Shown: one piece after another, positions 1-4,778 of the stretch
How the letters are laid out: each line of letters begins with the position of its first letter
How positions within the stretch are numbered: position 1 is the first letter of the stretch
Source: Desulfobacteraceae bacterium Eth-SRB1
Lineage (GTDB): Bacteria > Desulfobacterota > Desulfobacteria > Desulfobacterales > ETH-SRB1
Length of the DNA stretch: 64,000 nt
Reading direction: 5' to 3'
Assembly: GCA_004193555.1 (NCBI GenBank)
Contig: RPGP01000029.1
Location: forward strand, 140,976 to 204,975
The notes under the pieces: model-generated
Databases searched by the model: none
Told to the model about the DNA's origin: nothing
The model's input: the letters and a program-made list of their open reading frames with translations, nothing else
Program-made: the position numbers and the translations under genes

Positions 1-59
1 ATATCTACGCTCCTTTCATCGCTCCGGATAACGACACACCAACAAGGAAAATACAATGA
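1..59 (+). pseudogene. 3' end of an upstream ORF whose last residues (IYAPFIAPDNDTPTRKIQ*) duplicate HsdR residues about 24-38
   Basis: nt 1-47 align by eye to 1147-1193 (YIYAPSIAPDSETPER in hsdR). Its TGA (57-59) overlaps the rhuM ATG as ATGA. Confidence 0.4.
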
Positions 60-1084
60 AAAACAATTTGCCTGCTAAACAGTCAAACTTCCTTCTCTAC
101 ACAGGAAACGATGGGAAGGTGAATGTTGAAGTCTTTCTTAAAGACGAAACGGTTTGGCTTACGCAAAAGGCTATGGGCTTACTTTTTGGCGTTGAAAGCC
201 ACACGATCACCTATCATTTAAAAGAGATTTTCAGGTCAGGTGAACTTGATGAAAAAGCAACTACTCGAAAAATTCGAGCAGTTCAAAATGAAGGTAAAAG
301 GCAGGTAACAAGAAAACTTGATTTCTACAACCTCGATGCCATCATTTCGGTCGGTTACCGCGTCAACTCTTACCAGGCCACGCAGTTTCGCATCTGGGCT
401 ACCAGAACCCTGAAAGAATTCATCATCAAAGGGTTTGTTTTGGATGATGAGCGGCTCAAACAGGGCAATCAGGTTTTCGGTAAAGATTATTTTGATGAAC
501 TGTTGGAGCGTATACGGGAAATCCGAGCCAGTGAGCGACGCTTTTATCAAAAGATTACCGACATATATGCTCTCTCGGCTGATTATGATAAAAACGCGCT
601 TATTACCAAAGAGTTTTTTGCCACAGTTCAAAACAAGCTGCATTGGGCCATAACTGGAAAAACGGCTGCTGAAATCATTTATGATTCAGCAGATGCGACT
701 AAAATTTACATGGGTCTGACCAACTGGAAACATGCGCCGGACGATAAAATCTTAAAATCCGATGTTGCCGTTGCCAAAAATTACCTGAACAAAGCCCACA
801 TCAAGGAACTTAATCAGATCGTCTCAGCTTATCTTGATTTGGCGGAAAACAGAGCACAGCGGCAGATTTTGATGAAAATGACGGACTGGATTGAATTTCT
901 GCACAACTTTTTGGAATTGTCTAAGTATCCTATCTTACAGGACAAGGGTAAAGTCAGCGCATTGGAGGCCAGACTCAAAGCTGAACAGGAATATGAGGAG
1001 TACCGTATCGGGCAGGATAAAGACTATCTCTCTGATTTTGACAAAGAAATAAGGCGTATTACAGGCAAAAAAGATGGAAGATAA
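56..1084 (+). CDS. rhuM: RhuM-family protein
   Basis: N-terminal LLYTGNDGKVNVEV...ETVWLTQKAMGLLFG and YNLDAIISVGYRVNSYQATQFRIWATRTLKEFIIKGFVLDDERLKQG are typical of the RhuM family, which is often embedded in type I R-M loci. Confidence 0.85.
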   Translation: MKNNLPAKQSNFLLYTGNDGKVNVEVFLKDETVWLTQKAMGLLFGVESHTITYHLKEIFRSGELDEKATTRKIRAVQNEGKRQVTRKLDFYNLDAIISVGYRVNSYQATQFRIWATRTLKEFIIKGFVLDDERLKQGNQVFGKDYFDELLERIREIRASERRFYQKITDIYALSADYDKNALITKEFFATVQNKLHWAITGKTAAEIIYDSADATKIYMGLTNWKHAPDDKILKSDVAVAKNYLNKAHIKELNQIVSAYLDLAENRAQRQILMKMTDWIEFLHNFLELSKYPILQDKGKVSALEARLKAEQEYEEYRIGQDKDYLSDFDKEIRRITGKKDGR

Positions 1085-4000
1085 AATAACTGAAAATGCT
1101 ATTGAAAAATTTGCTATCGAACTCCTTGAAAAGCAGGGCTACCAATACATCTACGCCCCTTCCATCGCCCCGGACAGCGAGACACCGGAAAGAGAATCCT
1201 TTGAAGATGTGCTGCTCATGGAGCGATTGCAAACAGCCGTCGGCAGGATCAACCCGTCTATTCCAGCGGATATCCGGGAAGACGCTATCAAGCAGATTCT
1301 AAGGCTTAATTCACCGGAACTCATTGCTAACAATGAAGCATTTCACCGAATGCTGACAGAGGGAATAAAAGTCACTTATCAAAAAGACTGGGCCAGCCGG
1401 GGTGATCTGGTCTGGCTCATTGATTTCAAAAATCCGGAAAATAATGATTTTGTCGTTGCCAACCAATTCACCGTTATTGAAAACAATGTAAACAAACGGC
1501 CAGATGTAGTTCTTTTTGTGAACGGCCTGCCTCTGGTTGTTATTGAACTTAAAAATCCGGCTGATGAAAACGCAACCATAAGATCGGCATTCAAACAACT
1601 GCAAACATATAAACAGGAAATCCCCAGCCTGTTTATCTATAACGGCTTTATGATTATTTCCGATGGCTTGGAAGCAAAAGCCGGTTCTATTTCTGCTGGT
1701 TTAACCCGTTTTATGGCATGGAAAACATCGGACGGCAAAGTAGAAGCATCCCCATTGATCGGACGAGTGGAAACCCTGATAAAGGGAATGCTAAACAAAG
1801 AAACGCTTTTGGACGTCATCCGTCATTTTGTTGTGTTTGAAAGGTCAACAAAGTTGACTCCCTCCCTCAATCCCTCCCAGCGGGAGGGAAGCCATTATCG
1901 TGGTGGAATGAATTTCACCGGTATGATAAAACAAGTCAGAGATTTACGAAAAAATCAGACTGAAGCGGAAAGTATTTTTTGGGAGCTGGTGAGAAACAAA
2001 AAGTTCTTCGGATTGAAGTTTAGACGACAACATCAAATTGGACACTACATTGTTGATTTTTACTGTCACTCGGAGAAGTTGATAATTGAGTTAGATGGTG
2101 AAGTTCATAATATTCAGGAACAAAAGAACAAAGACGAGAAAAGGGATAAGTATCTGAAAAGTCTCGGCAATAGAATGTTGAGATTTAAAAATACAGAATT
2201 ATTTGAGAATACAGAAAATGTGCTGAAAACAATTGAAAAAAACCTCTCTCCCTCTGGGAGAGACGGAAGAGAGGGTGGTATAACGACAGTTACTACCATC
2301 AAAAAACTGGCTGCCTATCATCAATATTATGCTGTAAACAGAGCTGTTGAATCTACGTTAAGAGCCGCTGAATATTTGCCTGTGCAGAAAAAAACACAGC
2401 GGGAACAAATAGCGGAATCCCCTGAAAGTTATGGCCTGCCGGGTGTAAAAAAACAGCCTTCAGGAGACCGGAAAGGCGGCGTGGTATGGCACACTCAAGG
2501 AAGCGGCAAATCGCTTTCCATGGTTTTTTATACTGGAAAGATTGTCCTGGTAATGGATAACCCCACGGTTCTGGTCATTACCGACAGAAACGATCTGGAC
2601 GATCAGTTGTTTGATACCTTTGCCGCATCAAAACAACTGCTCAGGCAGGAACCGGTGCAGGCGGAAGACAGAGGCCACTTGAAGGAGCTGCTCAAAGTCG
2701 CATCTGGCGGAGTGGTGTTTACCACCATCCAGAAATTCCAACCCGATGAAGGCAATGTTTATGAAACCCTTTCGGAAAGAAGAAACATCATTGTCATTGC
2801 CGATGAAGCCCACCGGACTCAGTATGGTTTTAAAGCCAAGACCATTGATGCCAAAGATGAAAACGGCAATATTGTCGGTAAAAAAATTGTGTACGGTTTT
2901 GCCAAGTATCTGCGGGATGCGCTACCGAACGCTACTTATCTTGGCTTTACCGGAACGCCCATTGAAAGCACCGATGTTAACACCCCGGCTGTATTTGGCA
3001 ACTATGTTGATATTTACGATATCCTGCAAGCGGTTGATGATGGTGCAACAGTCAGAATCTTTTACGAAAGCAGACTGGCAAAGATTAACCTCAGTGAAGA
3101 AGGCAAGCAACTCATCAAAGATTTTGATGAGTTACCCCTCTCCCAACCTCTCCCAGAGGAAGAGGAGAGTTTGCTCCCTTCTCCTTCTGGGGGAAGGGCT
3201 GGGGATGGGGGTTTTGTTTCCAACAAAATCAAGGCCAAATGGACACAATTAGAAGCGCTCATCGGCAGTGAAGACCGGATAAAACAGGTTGCTCAAGATA
3301 TTATCAATCATTTTGAGCAGCGTCAGGAAGTTTTTGAAGGCAAGGCCATGATTGTTGCCATGTCCCGCCGGATCGCCGCCGATTTATACAAGGAAATCAT
3401 CAGCATCAGACCGCAATGGCATAACGACGATCTGAAAAAGGGCGTCATTAAAGTGGTAATGACATCCGCATCCTCTGATGGCCCTGAAATTTCCAAACAT
3501 TACACTACCAAAGATCAACGCAGAGCATTGGCCGACAGGATGAAAGACCCTGAAGATGAACTCAAACTGGTCATTGTCCGGGATATGTGGCTGACCGGTT
3601 TTGATGTGCCTTGCATGCACACTCTTTACATAGACAAACCCATGAAAGGCCATAATCTGATGCAGGCCATTGCGCGGATCAATCGCGTCTATAAGGATAA
3701 ACCCGGCGGGCTTGTGGTAGATTATCTTGGCATTGCGTCAGACCTTAAAAAAGCGTTGTCGTTTTATTCGGACAGCGGAGGGAAAGGCGACCCGGCAATC
3801 GCACAGGAAAAAGCGGTTCAAATGATGCTGGAGAAACTGGAAGTCGTTTCCCAGATGTTTCACGGGTTTGCCTATGAAGAATATTTCGAGGCTGACACAA
3901 GGGAAAAACTTTCTCTGATACTTGCCGCAGAAGAACATATTCTGGGCCTGGAAAACGGGAAAAAGCGATACATCAATGAGGTAAACGCCCTGTCCCGTGC

Positions 4001-4778
4001 TTTTTCCATTGCCATACCACACGAACAAGCCATGGATGTTAAAGATGAGGTCTCGTTTTTTCAGGCGGTAAAATCCCGATTGGCCAAATTTGACAGCACC
4101 GGCTTTGGCAAAACAGACGAAGAAGTTGAAACAGCGATTAGACAGGTTATTGACAAAGCATTGGTAACAGAAAAGGTTGTGGATGTTTTCGATGCCGCTG
4201 GAATCAACAAACCTGATATTTCAATACTTTCAGAAGAATTCCTTTTGGAAGTCAAAAACATGGAGCATAAAAATATTGCTCTGGAAGTTTTGAAAAAACT
4301 GCTGAATGACGAAATAAAGATGAGAACCAAAAAGAATCTGATACAAAGCAAATCCCTCATGGAAATGCTGGAAAATTCCATTAAGAAATATCACAACAAA
4401 ATTTTAACAGCAGCAGAAGTCATTGAAGAATTAATTGAATTGAGCAAAGAAATTCAGAAGATGGACAAAGAGCCTCAGGAAATGGGGCTGTCTGATTTTG
4501 AATATGCTTTTTATACGGCCATTGCCAATAACGACAGCGCTCGTGAGTTAATGGAAAAAGACAAGCTGAGGGAATTGGCAATTGTATTGTTTAAAAAGGT
4601 AAAGGCCAATGCTTCCATCGACTGGACAATCAAGGAAAGCGTAAAAGCAAAATTAAAGGTCATTGTAAAAAGAACATTACGGCAGTATGGCTATCCACCG
4701 GATATGCAGAAATTGGCAACTGAAACAGTTTTAAAACAAGCTGAATTAATAGCGGAAGAAATTACACGTGGAGAATAA
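1074..4778 (+). CDS. hsdR: Type I restriction enzyme R subunit (HsdR), 1234 aa, with two in-frame insertions
   Basis: PD-(D/E)XK nuclease core DVVLFVNGLPLVVIELK; helicase motifs TQGSGKS, DEAHRTQ, GFTGTP, MWLTGFDVP, QAIARINR; KKLAAYHQYYAVNRAV linker. The start overlaps the rhuM stop. Confidence 0.92.
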   Translation: MEDKITENAIEKFAIELLEKQGYQYIYAPSIAPDSETPERESFEDVLLMERLQTAVGRINPSIPADIREDAIKQILRLNSPELIANNEAFHRMLTEGIKVTYQKDWASRGDLVWLIDFKNPENNDFVVANQFTVIENNVNKRPDVVLFVNGLPLVVIELKNPADENATIRSAFKQLQTYKQEIPSLFIYNGFMIISDGLEAKAGSISAGLTRFMAWKTSDGKVEASPLIGRVETLIKGMLNKETLLDVIRHFVVFERSTKLTPSLNPSQREGSHYRGGMNFTGMIKQVRDLRKNQTEAESIFWELVRNKKFFGLKFRRQHQIGHYIVDFYCHSEKLIIELDGEVHNIQEQKNKDEKRDKYLKSLGNRMLRFKNTELFENTENVLKTIEKNLSPSGRDGREGGITTVTTIKKLAAYHQYYAVNRAVESTLRAAEYLPVQKKTQREQIAESPESYGLPGVKKQPSGDRKGGVVWHTQGSGKSLSMVFYTGKIVLVMDNPTVLVITDRNDLDDQLFDTFAASKQLLRQEPVQAEDRGHLKELLKVASGGVVFTTIQKFQPDEGNVYETLSERRNIIVIADEAHRTQYGFKAKTIDAKDENGNIVGKKIVYGFAKYLRDALPNATYLGFTGTPIESTDVNTPAVFGNYVDIYDILQAVDDGATVRIFYESRLAKINLSEEGKQLIKDFDELPLSQPLPEEEESLLPSPSGGRAGDGGFVSNKIKAKWTQLEALIGSEDRIKQVAQDIINHFEQRQEVFEGKAMIVAMSRRIAADLYKEIISIRPQWHNDDLKKGVIKVVMTSASSDGPEISKHYTTKDQRRALADRMKDPEDELKLVIVRDMWLTGFDVPCMHTLYIDKPMKGHNLMQAIARINRVYKDKPGGLVVDYLGIASDLKKALSFYSDSGGKGDPAIAQEKAVQMMLEKLEVVSQMFHGFAYEEYFEADTREKLSLILAAEEHILGLENGKKRYINEVNALSRAFSIAIPHEQAMDVKDEVSFFQAVKSRLAKFDSTGFGKTDEEVETAIRQVIDKALVTEKVVDVFDAAGINKPDISILSEEFLLEVKNMEHKNIALEVLKKLLNDEIKMRTKKNLIQSKSLMEMLENSIKKYHNKILTAAEVIEELIELSKEIQKMDKEPQEMGLSDFEYAFYTAIANNDSARELMEKDKLRELAIVLFKKVKANASIDWTIKESVKAKLKVIVKRTLRQYGYPPDMQKLATETVLKQAELIAEEITRGE
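1857..2279 (+). mobile_element. In-frame, hairpin-flanked cassette encoding a DUF559 (Vsr-like) endonuclease domain inside hsdR
   Basis: LRKNQTEAESIFWELVRNKKFFGLKFRRQHQIGHYIVDFYCHSEKLIIELDGEVH...RDKYLKSLGNRMLRFKN matches DUF559. It is flanked by hairpins tccctccc-agc-gggaggga (1871-1889) and ctctccc-tct-gggagag (2246-2262). It interrupts the HsdR nuclease-helicase linker. Boundaries are approximate. Confidence 0.7.
3133..3213 (+). repeat. Solo-end (endonuclease-less) derivative of the same cassette, in frame in hsdR (about 27 codons, PLSQPLPEEEESLLPSPSGGRAGDGGF)
   Basis: ctctcccaacctctcccagaggaagaggagag plus ctcccttctccttctgggggaagggctggggatgggg resemble the left and right ends of the 1857-2279 cassette placed side by side. 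Confidence 0.6.

What the first reader, a model, noticed from the sequence alone, without database searches (positions are those of the whole stretch)
3133..3213. Second in-frame insertion in hsdR looks like the two cassette ends without cargo (MITE-like or excision footprint)
About 27 extra codons (PLSQPLPEEEESLLPSPSGGRAGDGGF) interrupt the HsdR helicase region between ...LIKDFDEL and VSNKIKAKWTQLEAL.

The first half of the DNA (ctctcccaacctctcccagaggaagaggagag) resembles the left end of the 1857-2279 cassette (ccctcaatccctcccagcgggagggaag). The second half (cttctccttctgggggaagggctggggatgggg) resembles its right end (ctctccctctgggagagacggaagagagggtgg).

A full element and an ends-only derivative in the same gene, both preserving the frame, is what an autonomous/non-autonomous mobile pair would produce.
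Basis: seen in the sequence. Interest (0 to 1): 0.6.

Follow-up and report, generated by a model that had tools for sequence, protein, structure and literature searches.

The report
Cargo-less triplex-repeat pair inside hsdR
The extra 27 codons in this restriction-enzyme gene are a translated, nuclease-less pair of inverted "triplex-motif" (BoxC-type) DNA repeats of the kind that brackets the DUF559 nuclease cassette in the same gene, and host-derived mini-palindromes at its junctions hint at how such elements settle into genes.

Summary
The insertion is real. Its core (window 3135-3211, 77 nt, 63% GC against 43% for hsdR) is two inverted BoxC/PIT/"TM"-type units separated by TTTG, and it has no stop codon in any of the six frames.

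Close hsdR alleles (92-96% nt identity) lack it (net +60 nt), as do 99 of the 120 best homologues.

Within the window alone, its likeness to the DUF559 cassette ends is no better than shuffles that keep the pyrimidine/purine runs (p=0.31 and 0.16). Relatives settle homology:
- The orthologous insert in the closest allele has a right half 32/34 identical to the window's cassette right end.
- In Kuenenia the match is 64/68.
- In hsdM, some genomes hold the full DUF559 cassette and others only its two fused ends, at the same site.

So "ends without cargo" is supported. "Excision footprint" is not supported, and mobilisation by DUF559 is untested. The insert-bearing alleles are not one clade (AU p=1e-6).

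New here: in these restriction-modification genes the junctions carry perfect palindromes built from host codons. They end exactly at the repeat and show compensatory changes.

The genome has only two copies, the second in a decayed duplicate locus.

This scan has noted DUF559/BoxC cassettes, and a few cargo-less forms, before on other DNA.

The parts
3109..3133 (+). Left junction palindrome AACTCATCAAA-gat-TTTGATGAGTT (11-bp perfect stem) made of remodelled hsdR codons (QLIKDFDEL). It ends 2 nt before the repeat.
   Evidence: (I10). Empty alleles have no such hairpin. Orthologous inserts have their own perfect stems with compensatory changes.
3135..3169 (+). Left triplex-motif unit, C-rich orientation: third arm CCCCTCTCCC (3135-3144), AA, Y arm CCTCTCCC (3147-3154), loop AGA, R arm GGAAGAGG(AGAG). 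It has one stem mismatch relative to the perfect P0001 copy.
   Evidence: The same unit type is widespread in metagenomes.
3170..3173 (+). TTTG spacer between the two units, the position that cargo occupies in full cassettes. It is 4 nt here and up to about 40 nt in anammox alleles.
3174..3211 (+). Right triplex-motif unit ('type B'), G-rich orientation: Y arm CTCCCTTCTCC, loop TTCT, R arm GGGGGAAGGG, CT, third arm GGGGATGGGGG. It has one substitution relative to the perfect P0083 copy.
   Evidence: It is shared with P0035/P0050/P0083. P0001 and the anammox alleles carry the cassette-type ('type A') unit here instead.
3212..3228 (+). Right junction palindrome TTTTGTT-tcc-AACAAAA (7-bp perfect stem), starting at the first base after the repeat. 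The 3' arm corresponds to host codons (TQKA in empty alleles).
   Evidence: read directly from the sequence and compared with empty alleles.
1844..1889 (+). For comparison: left end of the DUF559 cassette in the same gene, made of junction palindrome GTCAAC-aaa-GTTGAC (1844-1858) and left unit CCCTCCCTC-AA-TCCCTCCC-AGC-GGGAGGGA (1860-1889).
2245..2297 (+). For comparison: right end of the DUF559 cassette, made of unit TCTCTCCC-TCT-GGGAGAGA-CGGA-AGAGAGGG (2245-2275) and an imperfect junction hairpin GGTATAAC-gaca-GTTA(C)TACC (2277-2297).
1074..4778 (+). Host gene hsdR (type I restriction R subunit, 1234 aa). The open frame is intact through both inserts.

Best explanation
SHOWN. Window 3135-3211 is a nuclease-less ('ends-only') inverted pair of triplex-motif repeat units (BoxC/PIT/TM class). 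It belongs to the same element family as the two ends of the DUF559 cassette in the same gene. It sits in a linker after the first helicase domain of HsdR and lies in the open frame.

INFERRED, translation. It is translated as a Pro/Ser/Gly/Glu-rich loop of about 27 residues. It is tolerated because pyrimidine-only and purine-only tracts cannot encode stop codons and the net length change is a multiple of three.

INFERRED, arrival. It did not arise in this gene. It reached the window/P0001 hsdR lineage by recombination with an insert-bearing allele, either homing-like or ordinary homologous exchange. The backbone is closest to alleles that lack it, and its two halves match different donor lineages.

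INFERRED, origin. Either cargo was lost from a DUF559 cassette, as documented at the hsdM site, or two solo units were paired. The first is slightly favoured.

INFERRED, junction palindromes. The perfect palindromes on both sides come from templated, fold-back/template-switch DNA synthesis where replication stalls at the structured repeat, either at insertion or repeatedly afterwards.

INFERRED, current state. In this genome the element is an old, slightly decayed passenger. Each hairpin has one mismatch, and the only other copy lies in a decayed duplicate of the locus.
For: Absence from relatives:
- Absent from 92-96%-identical alleles and from 99/120 homologues.
- 63% GC against 43% for hsdR, and stop-free in six frames.

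Homology with cassette ends:
- P0001 insert right half against the window's cassette right end: 32/34, z=8.5 against run-preserving shuffles.
- Kuenenia insert against its own cassette end: 64/68, including a lineage-specific tandem extension.
- Tandem GGITxGRDGRE units occur at both places.

Same site, full and cargo-less:
- The hsdM site LWFxSR|EILFIDAR holds the full cassette in L024 and L031.
- In Kuenenia L029 it holds a 67-nt fusion of the two ends (left end identical, right end 1 mismatch). L027 and L038 hold cargo-less variants. The site is empty in this genome.

Spread and recombination:
- A 29-base-specified right-unit pattern occurs only in hsdR/hsdM in 19 loci from very different phyla, including archaea.
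- Backbone tree: insert-bearing alleles need at least 4-5 changes, and one clade is rejected (lnL -263, AU p=1e-6). The window backbone is about 90-95% identical to empty alleles but 65-80% to most insert-bearing ones.
- Near-identical alleles P0035-38 and P0050 differ by presence of the cassette.

Junction palindromes:
- 63 distinct junction flanks have mean MFE -5.6 against -2.0 kcal/mol in controls (p=1.4e-15), and they close at the last host base.
- Among six insert alleles, 100% of cells are paired, with two compensatory pairs.
- The arms track synonymous host codons, and there is a nested 17-bp example.

Literature:
- The TM pattern, the five inverted TM pairs in E. coli and the reported polymerase block are in PMC4666352.
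- The template-switch mechanism that makes imperfect inverted repeats perfect is in PMC7202029.
Against: - Inside the window the halves match the cassette ends no better than architecture predicts.
- The window's right half is a different unit type from the cassette end.
- None of the homologues examined has a DUF559 at this site, so in-situ cargo loss is not shown for this site.
- The left unit word (CCTCTCCC) differs from the cassette's left word (CCCTCCC). It is common as solo, mostly non-coding copies in metagenomes: 81 of 86 are not next to a DUF559.
- Only two copies exist in this genome and there is no sign of recent movement.
- Junction palindromes are missing from most non-coding solo units (61/82 have none). 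In an independent sample of in-frame DUF559 cassettes only 3 of 21 junctions have them. A stalled fork at any such repeat cannot therefore be the whole story.
- No nuclease activity, cut site or translation product has been measured.
Confidence: 0.72

Rival explanations
1. An independent inverted pair of BoxC/TM repeats that never carried a DUF559 gene. It resembles the cassette ends only because both are built from the same widespread repeat family, and the nuclease is a separate passenger or partner.
For: - E. coli has five cargo-less inverted TM pairs, each a type A unit with a type B unit (PMC4666352).
- 7 of 83 metagenomic copies of the left unit have an inverted partner within 130 nt without cargo, e.g. 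L101 with a 9-nt spacer.
- No DUF559 was found at this hsdR site in any homologue.
- The insert occurs in alleles without a cassette (P0035-38, P0083).
Against: - In relatives the right half is identical to cassette right ends down to the cargo-proximal AGT and a lineage-specific tandem extension.
- Full and fused-ends forms share one hsdM site.
- The anammox alleles keep 30-40 nt of non-repeat sequence between the units.
Confidence: 0.3
2. An active non-autonomous element (MITE-like) that is mobilised in trans by the DUF559 nuclease of the neighbouring cassette.
For: - Among homologues of at least 1000 aa, seven of the eight with the site-1 cassette (counting the window's own hsdR) also have the insert.
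- Both show presence/absence polymorphism that is incongruent with the backbone tree.
- The hsdR and hsdM sites are occupied repeatedly across phyla.
Against: - The co-occurrence is confounded by shared ancestry of alleles.
- Either element occurs without the other.
- There are two copies in this genome, both in hsdR copies, with one mismatch in each hairpin.
- No direct target-site duplication was seen.
- No activity is known for this nuclease family.
- There were no hits in viral contigs.
Confidence: 0.2
3. An excision footprint left when a full cassette cut itself out of this site.
For: It has the two-ends-only anatomy, and full and empty-with-ends forms exist at the hsdM site.
Against: - Cut-and-paste footprints are a few bases. 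Here both complete 35-38-nt terminal units remain, in frame, and are conserved across distant alleles.
- Internal deletion would give the same anatomy without any excision.
- The spacer length varies from 4 to about 40 nt between alleles.
Confidence: 0.05
4. A host-evolved low-complexity linker or functional loop of HsdR with no mobile origin.
For: - It lies in a variable loop where homologues differ in length.
- The frame is intact.
- A low-confidence model shows coil here.
Against: - Absent from 99/120 homologues and from the closest alleles.
- DNA-level identity with repeats in other genes and phyla.
- GC is 20 points above the gene's.
- Other hairpin-repeat classes occupy the same loop in other alleles.
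Confidence: 0.03

Closest known systems
BoxC / PIT elements / TM(ECO) intrastrand triplex motifs (Holder et al. 2015, PMC4666352; Hoyne et al. 2000 as cited there)
   Same: [quoted passage not shown] E. coli also has inverted pairs that combine two unit types. The repeats are associated with local rearrangement.
   Different: - The unit words differ from the TMECO consensus CCCTCNCCC...GGGNGAGGG.
- The second loop is 2 nt, not 3.
- The published motifs are described as always intergenic and not linked to mobile elements. This pair lies in frame inside a gene and is tied to a DUF559 cassette family.
- Triplex formation was not measured here.
Rickettsia palindromic elements (RPEs), MITE-like repeats inserted in frame in protein genes (reviewed in PMC10969869)
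   Same: Both are short palindromic repeats that sit inside ORFs, keep the frame and are read as extra peptide in permissive loops.
   Different: There is no sequence relation. RPEs are about 150 bp and multi-copy within a genome. This element is 77 nt, has two copies here and a nuclease-carrying full-length form. Host-derived junction palindromes are not, to my knowledge, described for RPEs.
Free-standing or embedded homing endonuclease genes of the Vsr-like EDxHD family (I-Bth0305I; PMC3239194, cited from earlier notes, not read here), and the invasion-decay-loss cycle of homing elements
   Same: Both show presence/absence polymorphism at a fixed site in a conserved gene, spread incongruent with the host gene tree, and nuclease-less remnants.
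   Different: There is no intron or intein. The element stays in the protein. No cleavage of the empty site is known. The ends are structured repeats.
REPIN-RAYT / REP systems
   Same: A hairpin repeat family occurs as singlets and inverted doublets, with a single-copy enzyme gene bracketed by the repeats.
   Different: The enzyme here has a Vsr/PD-(D/E)xK fold, not an HUH tyrosine transposase. The repeats are triplex-type. The copies are in frame in genes.
Quasipalindrome template-switch mutagenesis (Ripley model; Klaric, Perr and Lovett 2020, PMC7202029)
   Same: It explains clustered substitutions that turn host flanks into perfect inverted repeats next to a replication obstacle, without a change of length.
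   Different: It is known as a mutational hotspot mechanism in reporters. It is not known as a regular feature of element junctions. The link here is an inference.

Membership tests
BoxC/PIT/TM intrastrand triplex motif | [quoted passage not shown] | tested here: met
   - Right unit: CTCCCTTCTCC-TTCT-GGGGGAAGGG-CT-GGGGATGGGGG.
- Left unit, read on the minus strand: CTCTCCTCTTCC-TCT-GGGAGAGG-TT-GGGAGAGGGG.
- Each has one stem mismatch in the window and is perfect in P0001/P0083.
- The second loop is 2 nt.
BoxC/PIT/TM intrastrand triplex motif | Match to the TMECO consensus CCCTCNCCC N3-6 GGGNGAGGG N3 GGGNGAGGG. | tested here: not met
   The words are CCTCTCCC/GGGAGAGG and CCCTTCTCC/GGAGAAGGG. 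The classic consensus does occur in this genome, next to the free-standing DUF559 on contig C40.
BoxC/PIT/TM intrastrand triplex motif | Forms a triplex in vitro (CD/NMR). | not testable with these tools
   Only hairpin folding could be computed (z -1.4 to -1.9 for the whole insert).
MITE | Terminal inverted repeats and small size without a coding gene. | tested here: met
   The left unit is the inverted copy of the right unit type. In P0001 a 17-nt exact core, loop included, matches the reverse complement. The element is 77 nt.
MITE | Direct target-site duplication. | tested here: not met
   No direct repeat flanks the insert. Instead, inverted copies of host sequence form junction palindromes.
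MITE | Multiple dispersed copies in the genome. | tested here: not met
   There are two copies, both within hsdR copies. About six perfect TM units exist in the genome.
Ends-only derivative of the DUF559/TM cassette | Both termini homologous to cassette termini. | tested here: inconclusive
   - Right terminus: shown in orthologous alleles (32/34, 64/68), but the window copy carries another unit type.
- Left terminus: 24/31 to the cassette left end, p=0.31 under run-preserving shuffles.
- The same left-unit type does bracket DUF559 genes elsewhere (L108, L043, L059).
Ends-only derivative of the DUF559/TM cassette | Full and cargo-less forms at one site. | tested here: inconclusive
   Met at the hsdM site. 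Not met at this hsdR site, where no homologue has cargo.
Homing-endonuclease-type element | Nuclease cuts the empty allele, and repair copies the element with flanking co-conversion. | not testable with these tools
   The tree incongruence is compatible with this. The altered flanks are better explained as junction palindromes than as co-conversion tracts.
Intein / mini-intein | Splicing blocks (N-terminal Cys/Ser, C-terminal His-Asn plus nucleophile). | tested here: not met
   The 27-residue peptide PLSQPLPEEEESLLPSPSGGRAGDGGF has none, and there is no Pfam hit in this stretch.

The most novel reading that the evidence does not exclude
The host-derived perfect palindromes that abut these elements are the missing insertion or maintenance signature of a structure-directed class of mobile DNA. 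Triplex-motif units, with or without a DUF559 gene, would be installed and kept in genes by fold-back/template-switch DNA synthesis at forks stalled on the repeat, not by transposase cut-and-paste. This would explain how BoxC-type repeats spread, why they mark unstable loci, and why the junctions show inverted rather than direct target duplications.
Probability: 0.2. Interest if true: 0.85.

Novelty: new variant of a known kind. Interest (0 to 1): 0.6.

Why it matters
BoxC/PIT/TM repeats have been known for some thirty years with no assigned function or means of spread, and they are described as strictly intergenic.

Here a pair of them is read as protein inside a defence gene. The same gene family shows all stages side by side: empty site, full nuclease cassette and fused ends. 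That is the kind of series needed to argue that these repeats and DUF559 nucleases form one mobile system.

The junction palindromes give a concrete, testable molecular signature where earlier work on these cassettes had none (no target duplication or cut site was known). They also link the repeats to an established mutational mechanism, template switching at replication obstacles.

For annotation, such inserts explain odd Pro/Ser/Gly/Glu-rich loops and length variation in restriction-modification proteins.

Tried and rejected
1. Formal alignment inside the window.
2. Genome census. BLAST found no further copies beyond the duplicated locus, so a multi-copy MITE in this genome is rejected.
3. 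Viral contigs. There was no match to the right-unit pattern.
4. 'Co-conversion tract' reading of the diverged flanks. Replaced by junction palindromes once the stems were seen.
5. P-nucleotide / hairpin-opening origin of the palindromes. Rejected because the palindromes have 2-9-nt non-palindromic centres.
6. Universality of junction palindromes. Rejected.
   - Most non-coding solo units lack them, and nine of the ten positives there are one repeat family carrying its own hairpin.
   - Only 3/21 junctions in an independent sample of in-frame DUF559 cassettes have them.
7. Structure model of HsdR 401-900. Mean pLDDT was 50, so it was used only as weak support for 'loop'. The PDB sequence search places the site between the helicase-1 and helicase-2 matches to EcoR124I HsdR, but one of those matches is not significant.
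9. Intein, translational bypass and RNA excision were considered. The strict frame and multiple-of-three tandem expansions argue for plain translation.
Full report
**What is there**

hsdR runs from 1074 to 4778 (1234 aa). It has the usual HSDR_N, SWI2/SNF2, domain-3 and C-terminal families, plus a DUF559 hit at residues 287-391.

The DNA core at 3135-3211 consists of two units.
- Left unit: a C-rich arm (CCCCTCTCCC), AA, a pyrimidine arm (CCTCTCCC), loop AGA and a purine arm (GGAAGAGG...).
- Spacer: TTTG.
- Right unit, the mirror arrangement: CTCCCTTCTCC, TTCT, GGGGGAAGGG, CT, GGGGATGGGGG.

This is the block order published for BoxC/PIT/"TM" intrastrand triplex motifs, once on each strand (PMC4666352). 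The core is 63% G+C against 43% for the gene and has no stop codon in any of the six frames. Frame preservation therefore only requires a length that is a multiple of three.

**Is it an insertion?**

Yes.
- hsdR alleles in related genomes that are 92-96% identical in the flanks lack it and read ...DLDDELEVGELTVTQKAKAKW.... The net difference is 60 nt.
- Of the 120 best homologues, 99 have the short 48-residue spacing.
- About 15 have an insert of this type at exactly this place, with the pattern TLTxPLPEGEE ... SPSGRDGREG or ...GRRAGDEGF.
- A few carry other hairpin-type peptides in the same loop.

**Does it resemble the cassette ends?**

Inside the window, only at the level of architecture.
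- The left half matches the cassette left end 24/31, and the right half matches the cassette right end 17/19 over a short core.
- Both beat mononucleotide shuffles. Neither beats shuffles that keep the pyrimidine and purine runs (p=0.31 and 0.16).
- The best internal match is the left half against the reverse complement of the cassette right end (p=0.01).

Relatives rescue the claim.
- The orthologous insert in the closest insert-bearing allele (P0001, locus L015) also has the cassette. Its right half is 32/34 identical to the window's cassette right end (z=8.5 against run-preserving shuffles).
- In a Kuenenia allele (L019) the insert's right part matches that gene's own cassette end 64/68, including a lineage-specific tandem extension.
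- In P0001 the left unit contains a 17-nt exact inverted copy of the right unit's hairpin, loop included, so the two ends are true terminal inverted repeats.
- The window's right half is a second unit type, shared with P0035, P0050 and P0083. The window insert therefore looks like a recombinant of two insert lineages.

**Ends without cargo**

A scan of species-representative genomes for the cassette-type right unit (29 specified bases) gave 19 loci. They come from Brocadiaceae, Verrucomicrobiota, Victivallaceae, Lentisphaeraceae, Gammaproteobacteria, Ghiorsea, Marinilabiliaceae, Fibrobacteria and Methanophagales archaea. All lie in hsdR or hsdM.

The hsdM site LWFxSR|EILFIDAR shows the full series.
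- Two genomes (L024, L031) have the full DUF559 cassette there.
- Kuenenia (L029) has the left end fused directly to the right end: 67 nt, left end identical, right end one mismatch, no cargo.
- L027 and L038 have cargo-less variants with a decayed left end or extra right units.
- This genome's hsdM has the site empty.

That is direct evidence that ends-only forms of this cassette exist.

For the hsdR site itself I found no allele with cargo. The left unit there uses another word (CCTCTCCC) than the cassette's left end (CCCTCCC). That word is common in metagenomes: more than 120 hits, mostly in non-coding soil contigs. Five of 86 units lie next to a DUF559 gene, and 7 of 83 have an inverted partner close by. 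Whether this insert lost a nuclease gene in place or was assembled from repeat units remains open.

**How it got here**

- The window's hsdR backbone is about 90-95% identical to alleles without the insert and to P0001. It is only 65-80% identical to the other insert-bearing alleles.
- On a tree built without the insert columns, the trait needs five changes on the quick tree, or about four if window and P0001 are sisters.
- Forcing the 13 insert-bearing rows into one clade costs 263 log-likelihood units (AU p=1e-6). Window plus P0001 as sisters is not rejected.
- The near-identical alleles P0035-38 and P0050 differ by the presence of the DUF559 cassette.

Both inserts therefore move between hsdR alleles, most simply by recombination between homologous genes. 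The data cannot say whether a nuclease promotes this. The insert and the cassette each occur without the other.

**An unexpected feature: junction palindromes**

The flanks that differ from empty alleles are not random.

- At the left junction of the insert, the window has AACTCATCAAA-gat-TTTGATGAGTT (3109-3133).
- At the right junction it has TTTTGTT-tcc-AACAAAA (3212-3228).

Every orthologous insert has its own perfect stem in the same register:
- TTTCATC/GATGAAA
- TATCATCA/TGATGATA
- TATCGTC/GACGATA
- TGATTTCATC/GATGAAATCA

These close at the last base before the repeat. Among six distinct alleles, all 42 cells pair and two positions change on both sides. Empty alleles have no such hairpin.

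The cassette junctions in hsdR and hsdM, and solo units in hsdS, behave the same way.
- One arm is host coding sequence, for example the conserved IVFE codons TTGTGTTTGAAC. The other arm is its inverted copy.
- The copy tracks synonymous host differences (GTT against GTG).
- One locus has a nested 17-bp palindrome.
- Over 63 distinct junction flanks the mean folding energy is -5.6 against -2.0 kcal/mol for random positions in the same loci (p=1.4e-15).

At the insert's left side, five substitutions in three host codons (V-A-D to I-S-S) all go towards complementarity, without change of length. This is the pattern of template-switch ("quasipalindrome") mutagenesis, in which a stalled polymerase copies the nascent strand (PMC7202029). 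PIT elements are reported to block DNA polymerase in vitro (PMC4666352). That link is my inference.

Limits:
- 61 of 82 non-coding solo units have no abutting stem. Nine of the ten with a stem of at least 6 bp belong to one repeat family that carries its own hairpin.
- In an independent sample of 15 in-frame DUF559 cassettes from 400 genomes of the phylum, only 3 of 21 junctions have one, against 2.7% of control positions.

The feature therefore belongs mainly to the restriction-modification subfamily whose third arms face outward.

**State in this genome**

- There are two copies. The second is 100% identical over 95 nt and lies in a heavily deleted pseudo-copy of the rhuM-hsdR locus about 126 kb upstream on the same contig.
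- Each hairpin in the window copy has one substitution relative to perfect copies in other alleles.
- About six perfect triplex-type units exist in the genome, against none in shuffles. Two of them bracket a free-standing DUF559 gene in the opposite unit orientation.
- The element is therefore an old passenger here.

**Protein context**

- The SWI2/SNF2 family match ends at residue 686, where the insert begins.
- Weak matches to EcoR124I HsdR place the site between the two motor domains.
- A low-confidence model (mean pLDDT 50) shows coil between two helices.
- I take this only as compatible with a permissive loop.

**Comparison and novelty**

The repeat class is known but is described as intergenic and unlinked to mobile DNA. 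In-frame palindromic repeats are known from Rickettsia (PMC10969869).

This scan has repeatedly noted DUF559 cassettes with BoxC-type ends and a few nuclease-less in-frame copies on other DNA, so the general phenomenon is not new to the scan. I found no paper on it in a single three-term search.

This case adds three things:
- the same-site series in hsdM;
- proof of homology through orthologous alleles, where the window alone is insufficient;
- the junction palindromes.

Noticed in passing
outside the window: same contig about 126 kb upstream (genome contig C29:16836-18159; L001 6837-8160): A heavily deleted pseudo-copy of the rhuM-hsdR locus, made of pieces of window 51-417, 1083-1175, 2979-3402, 3873-4134 and 4721-4778. 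Its breakpoints carry repeat fragments: 22 nt of the cassette's right unit directly before the rhuM start, an 'LSACNAQAG' hairpin, and AT-rich CAATTATCAATTAT word repeats.
   Followed up: partly
outside the window: hsdM at contig C29:132524-134180: The hsdM of this locus carries another in-frame hairpin element (…DLSACNAQAGE…) at its N-terminus. The site that holds DUF559 cassettes or fused ends in other genomes (LWFxSR|EILFIDAR) is empty.
   Followed up: partly
HsdR homologues P0011, P0016, P0027, P0093, P0120: A second nuclease class shows the same pattern. GIY-YIG cassettes sit in frame in HsdR flanked by LPAPPPGQ...GGARQAG, and short 'LSAPSEARQAG' inserts look like their fused ends. Many other hairpin-peptide classes (AGPRACP, VNGEAREGALGY, ANDYSP, PLGEAGVRGSA, LPASAGQAGG) dot this protein family.
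   Followed up: no
outside the window: contig C40:466136-466880: A free-standing 156-aa DUF559 gene is bracketed by classic TMECO-consensus units (TTA loop upstream, inverted unit downstream). Their third arms face the gene, the opposite orientation to the hsdR cassette. A further solo unit lies about 250 nt upstream.
   Followed up: partly
L040 2504 and 3815, L027 2638, L029 6292, L016 2155, L017 4682: Further in-frame triplex-type units lie in hsdS (after the conserved ...WF motif), at a second hsdM site (YHxW|...KGFC), in the HsdR C-terminal region (AKFDS|..ETAIRQ) and in the HsdR N-terminus. Some are solo and some paired. Restriction-modification genes of these lineages are hot spots for such inserts.
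   Followed up: partly
window 1-60 and 1082-1186: The first bases of the window are a diverged copy (81%) of the hsdR 5' region.
   Followed up: no
L053, L055, L058, L067, L070, L076, L085, L088, L102: A soil-metagenome repeat family carries the same left-unit type preceded by its own conserved hairpin TCCCGAC-(aa/aaa/ac)-GTCGGGA, which abuts the unit with the same geometry as the host-derived junction palindromes.
   Followed up: no
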